From Mustelus asterias (Eukaryota): a stretch of 64,000 nt of DNA. The position numbers and the translations under genes were made by a program. Positions 19,401-22,141 of the stretch are shown here, piece by piece (position 1 is the first letter of the stretch; each line of letters starts with the position of its first letter). The DNA is taken from assembly GCF_964213995.1 (NCBI RefSeq), contig NW_027590159.1, positions 434,001-498,000 on the forward strand, given 5' to 3'. Under the pieces are notes generated by a model, which did no database searches, was not told the DNA's origin, and saw nothing but the letters and a program-made list of their open reading frames with translations.

Positions 19401-21717
19401 CGTCAATGCCTTGTAACATCATGTGCTAAAGCGAGACTCTCGAATTTATATTTGGTAACGGCACTGCGGCCTAAGACCAAAAACATTGCTTCCTCGATTT
19501 AATAATTAAGACCATCCCTGTAACTTAGTTATCGAACATTGCGCTTAAATAAAGAATATCCGAATTTAACAGTGCAAATTAGGACGAGGACAATATATTC
19601 AATTCCTCTGCAACACTGTGACATGATGAACTAAATAAATCGAGATTTTATTTAATAAGAATTAAGCATGGGGCTCAGGTATAATCACGCCTTCTATTTT
19701 ATTATTCCACGTATAATTCTGCCCCGTGTGCAGCAGTTATGGGGGAAGGGTTTTATTATTCAGTGCAATACAATGGTATTTTTAATTAAAATATTTGAAT
19801 TTCAATTATTTACATGTCAACCACAAACCGTGTGCTGCTGGCAACTTCCTACAATTCAAATGAATTCATATGAACAATTCCTTCACAGTCTGCGACTTCC
19901 ACCTCTCAGAAAACTGATTAAAATAAGAGAAATGATGACTATCTTGTTATCCAACTACAAATGGCATTGCAGGAATTCTATGGTTGTGGCTGTGCAGAAA
20001 TAATATAATAACCGGATCCACAAATTGTCAAACAGCAATGCAAAACGTATATTTAAGTCAATTAATTCAAAATATCTTTCGAAACTGAACACGACTGTAG
20101 AACCAACATGCTATTATTAAAATAGTTTCAAAGAATCATAGAATCCTACAGTGCAGAAGGAGGCCATTCGGCCCATCGAAACTGCACCGACATCAACCCC
20201 AGCTGGTTCCCCTGACACTAAGGGGCAATTTAGCATGGCCAATCCACCTAACACAATTAATCAGAAAGCATTTCCATTCCAGATACTTTGCGGTTACGTT
20301 AAGTGCACAACAGTCCATAATTGTGAAAAACGATTGATGATTAATAAAATTAATATAAAATAATATTTGACTAATTTCGAGTGATATTTGCTGTTATAAT
20401 TATTAAAATTATATCAATTTTAACTATCCAATTTGCAACTTGATAAATAATTAGTTTGTGATTGCAGCAACCAATTATGTTCTGAATTAAATCATAATTT
20501 CGTTTAATCTCTAATTATCACTTGAATGTCTTTTTTTAACGTCCCGTAAATTTTTATTATTTCTTAATTTCCGAAACCTGCCTGTTTTCGACCTTCAATC
20601 GTGCTTCAAAGTGTCTCAAATGCATAGACTATTTCCATTCAACCAGAAAACGTGTACGCTGTCAGTGTCACTGAGTCAAAACAATGTAGAAATGACCAAC
20701 TTTTTCAGAAATGCTACTTCTTCAAAGTCACCCAGACACACCATCTCCTCGGCAGAAAAAAAACACCAAAACACATCACTGAAGGACTGAATCCAGTTTC
20801 ATGGAGAAGCAGGTCAACTCTACATCGAACGGATTCAAATATAGCATTGCAGGACATTTCTAATATCGAATCCAGAAAACCCACAAGCCGAGTATGAACT
20901 ATTGAAGCAAATATGAGCCTCGAATAATGGCAATAACATTGGGAGTGGGTGGAATGTGTCCAAGAAATTAATATTGAACCTTCGCTGGATTTCATTCATA
21001 CTAGGTTATATTTCAAAGGTATTTCAAATATATTAAAAAAAAACAGCGGATGGTAAAACCTGCGGCCATCGCGGTTCAGCATTTCAGAAACGCCAAACTG
21101 TGGCTGCAAGAGCGAACTATGGTCTGAACTAGCGTCGTAAACCGTGAATTAGTTTATTCTGCAATTATCATATATTTATATATATTTAGCTGCACTGGCA
21201 GACTGTCTGGCTTCTGCCGACAATCATGCCCAAGTAGTTTTAAGCGGGTAGACTGAATTCAAGCACAATACGTGTACCTGTTCAATGGCACCGAGTTTAA
21301 ACAATGCAGAAGCAATGCAGAAGCGCCAAACCGTCTCACAAATCCTACTTAAAAGTCACCAGAAGCACAATCTGCTCAGCAGAAAAAAACACCAAATCAT
21401 ATCACTGAGGAAATGAAACAATTTTCATGAAGAAATTTCGCAATACTACAGACAAATTAAACAGAATCAAAGAGGAAACATTGCAACAAAGTCTGATTCC
21501 GAATCCATCAAATTCTCCTGTTCAGCGAGTGTATGAATAGCTTAACTAATCGGAAACATGAAATAATAGCGTCAGCATTGTGAGTAAGAAGAGGACGATC
21601 AACAAATGAACATTGAAACTCCAGCACACTTTGATAATCTTGGGTTATATTTCAAATACTTGTGCTGCAGGTTGTACCATCTGCAGCCATCAGATGCCAT
21701 CAAGATTAAACTTCGTA

Positions 21718-21924
21718 ACAGCGGGAGGGCGGGGGGGAGGGGACAGCGGGGGGGAGGGGGAAACAACCGGGGGGGGGCGGAAACAGCGAGGGGGGGGACA
21801 GCGGGGGGGGGGGGGCGGAAACAGCGAGGGGGGGTGGGGACAGCGCGGGGGGGGGGGTGGAAACAGTGGGGGGGGGGGGAAGAGCGGGGGAGGGAAAACA
21901 GCGGGGGGCGGGGAAACAGCGTGG
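21718..21924 (+). repeat. G-rich tandem repeat (ACAGCG plus G-run, ~11 units), G-quadruplex-capable
   Basis: Repeated (A)ACAGCG followed by runs of about 5-12 G. Confidence 0.9.
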
Positions 21925-22141
21925 GAATGATGCATTAATGATTTAGCAGAAATCATTGCTTCCTTAGATATTTGCCAGACGAACGCTTTCCAATTTTGAA
22001 GTTCAAGTTAAGTTGAGCAATCAGGTTGAAAGTAACGGTTTTCTTCTTGAATTCAGTGACACGGGCTCTCAGTCTCACCATTGTAACACAGCGCAGTTGA
22101 ACACTGCAGACAGGCCGATTGGCTGCCGTGTGCTGTCAGCT

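What the first reader, a model, noticed from the sequence alone, without database searches (positions are those of the whole stretch)
21660..21960. IgM cluster cut off just downstream of JH at a G-quadruplex-type repeat and fused to a tRNA array
Seen: the minus-strand J-C intron matches the plus-strand cluster up to ~21712, equivalent to ~57990, about 290 bp 3' of the JH donor. Homology then stops at a ~200 bp ACAGCG+G-run repeat, followed directly by a tRNA-Val array unit entered part-way through. No V, D or J was found upstream on the minus strand. Known: shark IgH genes are V-D-D-J-C clusters, and the DNA just 3' of JH is within the AID-targeted zone associated with inter-cluster switching. 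Inference: a germline rearrangement removed V-D-D-J at a G4-prone or switch-like break and left an orphan C-mu. A low-complexity misassembly is the alternative.
Basis: partly seen in the sequence, partly recalled or inferred. Interest (0 to 1): 0.7.

Follow-up and report, generated by a model that had tools for sequence, protein, structure and literature searches.

The report
Decapitated shark IgM pseudogene, ordinary debris
A dead shark IgM antibody gene has lost its variable-region half and now abuts the normal upstream DNA of its neighbouring antibody gene, likely through an ordinary inherited deletion of a kind seen about ten times in this genome, so it is unlikely to be a trace of class-switch-like cutting.

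Summary
The junction is real. It stands in three contigs at 99.75-99.85% identity, and short-read contigs cross both edges of the G tract. No V or J exists for the minus-strand C-mu. The C-mu is an old pseudogene with a neutral substitution pattern. The tRNA-Val array is not a foreign partner: it is the usual upstream end of IgM duplication units, here of the plus-strand cluster, and contig C118 holds an intact head-to-head pair. The join is therefore best read as a deletion between neighbouring units. Of 94 C-mu2 hits, 15 lack a J (9-10 events), with scattered breaks and varied partners; no other break abuts a G tract. The tract is absent from 26 of 26 intact introns and resembles minisatellites of an unrelated multicopy family. 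A switch/AID origin is not supported, though breaks lean toward the first 2 kb of the intron. The scan earlier noted similar IgM debris on other DNA of this genome.

The parts
5426..5553 (-). Orphan IgM TM1 exon
   Evidence: 87% to TM1 of the plus-strand cluster
9549..9922 (-). Orphan C-mu4 + secretory tail; 6-bp deletion and premature stop remove the tail Cys
   Evidence: among full-length (tail-including) PDB matches human C-mu ranks first, E 6e-35
11139..11426 (-). Orphan C-mu3; 15- and 6-bp deletions, first Cys changed to Trp
12069..12373 (-). Orphan C-mu2; first Cys lost, in-frame stop
13614..14868 (-). Orphan C-mu1, split by a ~950-bp CR1-type LINE fragment (about 13701-14648)
14869..21716 (-). 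Remnant J-C intron, cut at the point equivalent to +281 from the J donor
21717..21920 (+). G-run minisatellite (G-run + AAACAGC-type spacer, about 10 units) filling the junction; absent from both parental positions
21921..25330 (+). Four degenerate tRNA-Val-type array units, the first cut in its spacer; 5' end of the plus-strand IgM duplication unit
25331..55932 (+). Upstream flank of the plus-strand cluster, colinear with the flanks of intact clusters on C107 and C118
   Evidence: main blocks 73-90% identity
55933..57704 (+). Intact IgM leader (55933-55978), VH (56114-56417), D1 (56858-56871), D2 (57252-57263), JH (57657-57704); open C-mu1-4 and a TM1 exon lie beyond the window end
57894..57933 (+). 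RSS-like element with a 24-bp spacer, ending about 51 bp 5' of the break-equivalent point (57985)

Best explanation
This is an old IgM constant-region pseudogene joined through a short G-run minisatellite to the upstream tRNA-Val array of its head-to-head neighbour, likely by an ordinary germline deletion that removed its V-D-D-J and upstream flank. Shown: the orphan exons and their lesions, the absence of V and J, the junction in three contigs, the array as the normal 5' end of IgM units, an intact head-to-head pair on C118, and 9 other J-less C-mu lineages. Inferred: the event was a deletion, about 80 kb if C118 spacing applies, repaired without homology between the two ends; an inversion or duplication break would look the same. 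Inferred, weaker: the G tract is junction filler, either a remnant or templated copy of the G-run minisatellite carried by a multicopy family that lies among these IgH clusters, or a local slippage expansion. The dead unit was later copied with its living neighbour in a block of about 80 kb. It likely has no function: no promoter, V or J remains, and three of four C domains are broken.
For: Colinearity of window 21.9-59.7 kb with C107:942-1005 kb and with both units on C118. 23 of 85 J segments have a same-strand array unit 18-80 kb upstream, against 2, 7 and 3 of 85 in the other three geometries, from a partial list of 127 units. 15 of 94 C-mu2 hits have no J; mapped breaks are -10, +290, +1623, +1742, +1824, +1915, ~+3050, +3103 and two near C-mu1; partners are a GC-rich element, a LINE end, the cluster's own upstream flank, zinc-finger-like repeats, a satellite and others. 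Orphan-private exon changes by codon position are 20/30/14, against 4/4/13 for the intact neighbour. No close intact paralog was found: intron 66-69% (40 of 93 candidates scored), C-mu4 at most 85% (40 of 143 scored). Kilobase arrays of nearly the same G-run unit sit in a non-Ig family, and a member of that family abuts another J-less C-mu.
Against: The tract sits exactly at the join, yet tracts of 150 bp or more are rare here (5 in 0.81 Mb), so a causal link with the break is plausible. Breaks lean 5': 6 of 10 lie within 2 kb of J, P 0.005 or 0.11 depending on the intron length assumed. No pre-deletion allele or close intact paralog was found, so the ancestral sequence at the break and the deletion size are not observed. 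The match of the tract to the other family is 68-82% in low-complexity DNA and may be convergent.
Confidence: 0.7

Rival explanations
1. A pre-existing G-quadruplex-forming tract (for example in a gene that once lay between the two clusters) was the fragile site, and breaks at both of its edges produced the join.
For: Mean G4Hunter 2.1. The tract abuts both flanks exactly. Such tracts are rare in the region. A G-run-bearing family neighbours IgH clusters.
Against: 0 of 9 other J-less lineages have a G4-like run of 60 bp or more at the break. In C462/C1457 the tract is 2.7 kb from the break. No tract of 60 bp or more lies in the C118 inter-array spacer.
Confidence: 0.15
2. AID, active in germ cells or an early embryo, broke the J-C intron as in shark inter-cluster switching, and the end was misjoined.
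For: The break is about 280 bp from J. 6 of 10 breaks are within 2 kb. Reviews describe AID-linked switching between shark clusters (PMC4279169 and PMC8201067, passages). RAG evidently acts in this lineage's germ line.
Against: The product is not VDJ joined to another C. Only 2 of 10 breaks are within 1 kb of J, against 0.9-1.8 expected. WGCW counts at +200 to +400 are 5 and 1 in two intact introns, within the 0-8 range seen elsewhere. The tract has no AGCT and its G strand is the template strand. The same review says shark loci lack S regions.
Confidence: 0.07
3. RAG cut at the cryptic RSS about 230-250 bp 3' of J, and the resected end was misrepaired.
For: An RSS-like element with at most 3 mismatches lies at this site in 8 of 27 introns. 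Germline RAG-type joins are common here.
Against: The break is about 51 bp past the heptamer, the spacer is 24 bp, and no heptamer lies near the matching position in array units 2-4. The orphan's own ancestral sequence there is lost.
Confidence: 0.04
4. Assembly misjoin at low-complexity DNA, or a simple insertion with the true J further upstream.
For: G-run lengths differ among the three contigs. No single short-read contig spans the whole tract.
Against: Three contigs with their own SNPs and LINE differences carry the join. In runs X3 and X4 (one sample, possibly the assembly's source) contigs cross intron-to-tract by 99 and 47 bases and tract-to-array by about 55 and 110. There is no minus-strand V or J, and the downstream DNA is the neighbour's colinear flank.
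Confidence: 0.02

Closest known systems
Elasmobranch IgM minicluster pseudogenes (nurse shark Groups 6-8 and G2C; PMC2435157, passages) under birth-and-death evolution of Ig loci (PMC3308330, passages)
   Same: C-mu1-4, secretory tail and TM layout; disabling lesions; one of many duplicated clusters
   Different: This copy has lost V-D-D-J entirely, whereas the nurse shark pseudogenes in the passages read still hybridise to a VH probe. The tRNA-Val array as a standing part of the IgM unit did not turn up in my paper searches.
Nurse shark inter-cluster isotype switching (Zhu et al. 2012; primary paper not held, known only from review passages in PMC4279169, PMC5192425, PMC8201067)
   Same: A break near J in an IgH cluster joined to DNA of another cluster's unit
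   Different: Switching is somatic and puts a rearranged VDJ on another C region. This join is inherited, has no VDJ, and meets non-Ig spacer DNA 34 kb upstream of the neighbour's V.
Germline-joined Ig genes made by RAG in shark germ cells (Lee et al. 2000, PMC2193156; abstract and Results part 1 of 2)
   Same: Inherited rearrangement of an Ig cluster; such joins are common in this genome
   Different: RAG joins lie at RSS heptamers with a few bases trimmed. This join has no RSS on the array side and about 200 bp of filler.
Mammalian G-rich switch (S) regions (recalled; brief passage in PMC4279169)
   Same: G-run repeat with G4 potential next to a C-mu intron
   Different: Absent from intact clusters, G-rich on the opposite strand, no AGCT, only about 200 bp

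Membership tests
Elasmobranch IgM constant region | Four C-mu exons, secretory tail and TM exon, in order | tested here: met
   84-89% to the exons of the intact neighbour; TM2 was not recovered by blast
Birth-and-death Ig pseudogene | Disabling lesions | tested here: met
   LINE in C-mu1, stop and Cys loss in C-mu2, deletions and Cys loss in C-mu3, truncated tail
Birth-and-death Ig pseudogene | Loss of purifying selection | tested here: met
   Private changes 20/30/14 by codon position, against 4/4/13 for the intact neighbour (10 sequences)
Birth-and-death Ig pseudogene | Recurrent independent losses in the family | tested here: met
   15 of 94 C-mu2 hits are J-less, 9-10 events
Shark inter-cluster switch product | VDJ of one cluster joined to the C region of another | tested here: not met
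   No V or J upstream; the partner is tRNA-array spacer
Shark inter-cluster switch product | Somatic, B-cell restricted | tested here: not met
   Present in three contigs with diverged flanks and in short-read contigs
Shark inter-cluster switch product | Break inside the AID-targeted zone at hotspot motifs | tested here: inconclusive
   No WGCW/AGCT peak; the zone's published limits could not be read because the paper is not held
G-rich switch region | Present in the J-C intron of functional genes | tested here: not met
   No G4-type run in 25 J-bearing paralog loci or in the window's plus cluster. L044 has a J but was not scanned; L048 ends at a contig end.
G-rich switch region | G-rich non-template strand with AGCT repeats (feature recalled) | tested here: not met
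   G-rich on + while C-mu is on -; no AGCT in the tract
RAG germline join | Both ends within a few bases of RSS heptamers | tested here: not met
   Nearest RSS-like heptamer is about 51 bp away; none on the array side
G-quadruplex-driven breakpoint | Tract folds into G4 and predates the break | not testable with these tools
   Sequence potential is high; no pre-break allele was found
Functional tRNA-Val gene array | Intact cloverleaf genes | tested here: inconclusive
   1 of 4 units called, 40.5 bits with non-standard pairs; paralogous arrays hold more callable genes

The most novel reading that the evidence does not exclude
The first 2 kb of the shark IgM J-C intron is a germline-fragile zone. 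The lymphocyte machinery that joins V, D and J in this genome's germ line (RAG, perhaps AID) also breaks clusters just 3' of J, beheading them and shuffling C-mu among tRNA-array and zinc-finger-gene duplication units: a heritable counterpart of shark switching. This junction would be one of about six such scars.
Probability: 0.1. Interest if true: 0.65.

Novelty: new member of a known kind. Interest (0 to 1): 0.2.

Why it matters
As a single junction it matters little: it is one of about ten beheaded IgM copies in a region of constant duplication and loss. Two by-products are of modest use. Many IgM clusters here are copied as units of about 80 kb that start with a tRNA-Val array, which gives a marker for mapping cluster expansion. 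The set of J-less C-mu genes gives a small breakpoint map that could test whether lymphocyte DNA-cutting enzymes leave heritable scars near J. If that held, shark switching and germline cluster turnover would share a mechanism.

Tried and rejected
Misassembly: rejected. Simple insertion with J further upstream: rejected. G tract inherited from the intron: none in the paralog loci scanned. G tract inherited from the array: no tract at the matching point in 17 array loci; the 200-bp G tracts in L008 and L010-L012 have another unit and other flanks. Exact repeat motif elsewhere: only the three junction copies plus one unrelated single match; a looser motif found the non-Ig family. Rfam found nothing in 115 kb around that family, so my rDNA/snRNA-array idea failed. 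A zinc-finger identity for the family is only a lead: C2H2 arrays were seen beside the C462/C1457 member, not in the other members' fetched stretches apart from 2 motifs in L169. A sister relation of the orphan to any intact family: unresolved, tree support 0.24-0.51. Neither counts either way. Contig depth was not used as copy number. Zhu et al. 2012 and Zhang et al. 2013 are not held. Paper searches gave no description of shark switch-junction positions or of tRNA arrays in IgM units; subscription papers and supplements were not seen and may cover both.

Full report
Verdict. The window is G000:C127:434001-498000. That the animal is an elasmobranch is inferred from the V-D-D-J-C cluster layout.

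Observation. Self-blast aligns 20259-21711, inverted, with 59433-57990 at 67%. Multiple alignment extends the match to 21716, equivalent to +281 from the J donor at 57705. A G-run repeat of about ten units fills 21717-21920. A tRNA-Val-type unit follows, entered about 225 bp before its tRNA; that stretch aligns with internal spacers, whereas the first units of two intact arrays begin at the tRNA itself. Four units lie in 21.9-25.3 kb and one is called a tRNA. No V, D or J is found on the minus strand, and C127 has no minus-strand J-pattern match above the break.

Reality of the join. The 901-bp query matches C306 and C1987 at 99%. They share about 56 kb with the window at 99.75-99.85%, differ in SNPs, G-run lengths and LINE insertions, and C306 parts from C127 beyond about -7 kb and +72 kb. 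Three copies in one assembly imply at least one duplication or a redundant haplotig. Short-read contigs of runs X3 and X4 cross both edges of the tract, none spans it whole, and both runs come from one sample that may be the assembly's source.

The orphan. The minus strand carries C-mu1-4, a tail and TM1, 84-89% identical to the plus cluster. C-mu1 is split by a LINE, C-mu2 has a stop and has lost a Cys, C-mu3 has two deletions and a Cys-to-Trp change, and the tail is cut. Across ten C regions the orphan is 83-88% identical to the others, and its private changes fall 20/30/14 on codon positions, against 4/4/13 for the intact neighbour. No close intact paralog was found among scored candidates. 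It has likely been neutral for most of its branch. Whether beheading came first cannot be told.

The array is the neighbour's own flank. Window 21.9-59.7 kb is colinear with C107:942-1005 kb and with both units on C118. C118 reads J(-) 395 kb, array(-) 448-458 kb, array(+) 473-486 kb, J(+) 557 kb: an intact head-to-head pair. Genome-wide, 23 of 85 J segments have a same-strand array unit 18-80 kb upstream, against 2, 7 and 3 in the control geometries. That count used 127 typed unit positions; one search listed only 100 of 243 matches. Removing DNA from the intron of one unit to the array of the next gives the window's layout. C118's minus cluster is only 66% like the orphan, so it models geometry, not ancestry.

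Census of J-less C-mu. Patterns gave 85 J, 94 C-mu2 and 93 C-mu4 hits. Of the 94, 73 pair with a J, 3 are this orphan's copies, 2 lie near contig ends and were not examined for this, and 16 were fetched with up to 20 kb upstream. Of the 16, 2 have a V and a diverged J, 2 could not be assessed (a contig end, a run of N), and 12 lack V-exon and J matches. The 12 collapse to 9 lineages. Their breaks are -10 (C444), +1623 (C462 = C1457), +1742 (C91), +1824 (C131), +1915 (C128), about +3050 and +3103 (two on C71, both also lacking C-mu1, so less certain), and two near C-mu1 (C96, and a three-copy deletion from early V to C-mu1). C444 and C128 are 99% alike and may be serial deletions. Partners are varied, and none has a G4-like run of 60 bp or more at the break. 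C128 again has an opposite-facing tRNA array, 3.7 kb beyond its break. Counting the window, 2 of 10 breaks lie within 1 kb of J (0.9-1.8 expected) and 6 of 10 within 2 kb (P 0.11 for a 5.5-kb intron, 0.005 for the 10.7-kb median). The 3' part of the intron is repeat-rich and variable, so this lean is a lead only, and the cut-offs were chosen after seeing the data.

The G tract. It is absent from the intron in the 25 J-bearing paralog loci scanned and in the window's plus cluster, and from the matching point in 17 array loci. Kilobase arrays of nearly the same unit lie in a multicopy non-Ig family on C241, C316, C631, C689, C877, C882 and C2486. A member of that family, 87-93% identical over two pieces in five members, sits beside the C462/C1457 orphan with its own G-run unit 2.7 kb from the break. 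So a source for such filler exists among IgH clusters, though convergence is possible. Long G tracts are rare here (5 in 0.81 Mb), so the exact abutment is unlikely to be chance; the tract may be cause, remnant or repair product.

Switch, AID and RAG. Review passages say shark loci lack S regions and that switching moves a rearranged V to another cluster's C, concurrent with hypermutation (PMC4279169; PMC8201067; PMC5192425). This join has no VDJ, is inherited and meets non-Ig spacer. Hotspot counts show no peak at the break. The tract's G strand is the template strand and it has no AGCT; the S-region features are recalled. An RSS-like element ends about 51 bp 5' of the equivalent point in 8 of 27 introns, but the spacer is 24 bp and the array side has none. 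The primary switching papers were not available.

Papers seen. PMC4279169, PMC5192425, PMC8201067, PMC2435157, PMC12227049 and PMC3308330: passages only. PMC2193156: abstract, outline and Results part 1 of 2. Zhu 2012 and Zhang 2013: reference-list entries only. No supplements were read.

Novelty. A new instance of a known kind: an Ig cluster pseudogene made by duplication and loss. I found no printed account of tRNA-Val arrays as part of IgM units or of J-less C-mu in sharks, but the library lacks most primary shark Ig papers. Earlier notes of this scan describe similar debris and germline joins on other pieces of this genome; none is near this place. Interest 0.2.

Noticed in passing
window 56858-57263 versus G000:C306 about 357.2 kb: The C306 copy of the plus cluster has D1 fused to D2 with trimmed ends and the ~370-bp spacer gone, while the window copy is unjoined; upstream the two are 99.85% identical. 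Contig depth over the D1-D2 spacer is lower than over the D2-J spacer (21 vs 46 in X3, 36 vs 57 in X4), a weak hint of an inherited join; no listed contig shows this join itself. It is a very recent RAG-type join, germline or somatic.
   Followed up: partly
L044-L070: Many paralogs are partly or fully joined, and close family members differ in state: L055 V-DD-J, L056 VDD-J, L057 unjoined D1-D2; L059 and L060 have D-J joints of different length; L063 is VDD-J and L064 VDDJ with the same VDD joint.
   Followed up: partly
G000:C91, C131, C128, C462/C1457: Four J-less C-mu lineages break within a 300-bp span, +1620 to +1915 of the J-C intron; intron identities among them are 84-92%, so they look independent. 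Possible fragile spot.
   Followed up: partly
G000:C71:8.30 Mb, C88:1.62 Mb, C444:35 kb: Three copies of a cluster in which promoter, leader and early V run straight into the DNA before C-mu1: a leader-C-mu gene without most of V, D and J. Open frames were not checked.
   Followed up: no
window-relative 68-72 kb (C127:502-506 kb) versus C306: 86 SNPs fall in this 4-kb bin over the C-mu exons, against 1-8 in each upstream bin: likely gene conversion or a crossover with another cluster.
   Followed up: no
G000:C241, C316, C631, C689, C877, C882, C2486, C462, C1457: Multicopy family carrying a G-run minisatellite whose short spacer differs between members; C2H2 arrays lie beside the C462/C1457 member.
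   Followed up: partly
window 57984-59116 and 20574-21584: The 5' J-C intron holds a ~620-bp internal tandem duplication, kept in both clusters.
   Followed up: no
window 41.4-47.9 kb versus 50.3-54.0 kb: The IgM upstream flank contains an internal duplication at about 67-72% identity, also seen in C107 and C118.
   Followed up: no
window 4807-4985: Self-complementary stretch of about 180 bp (83%) in the intron after TM1.
   Followed up: no
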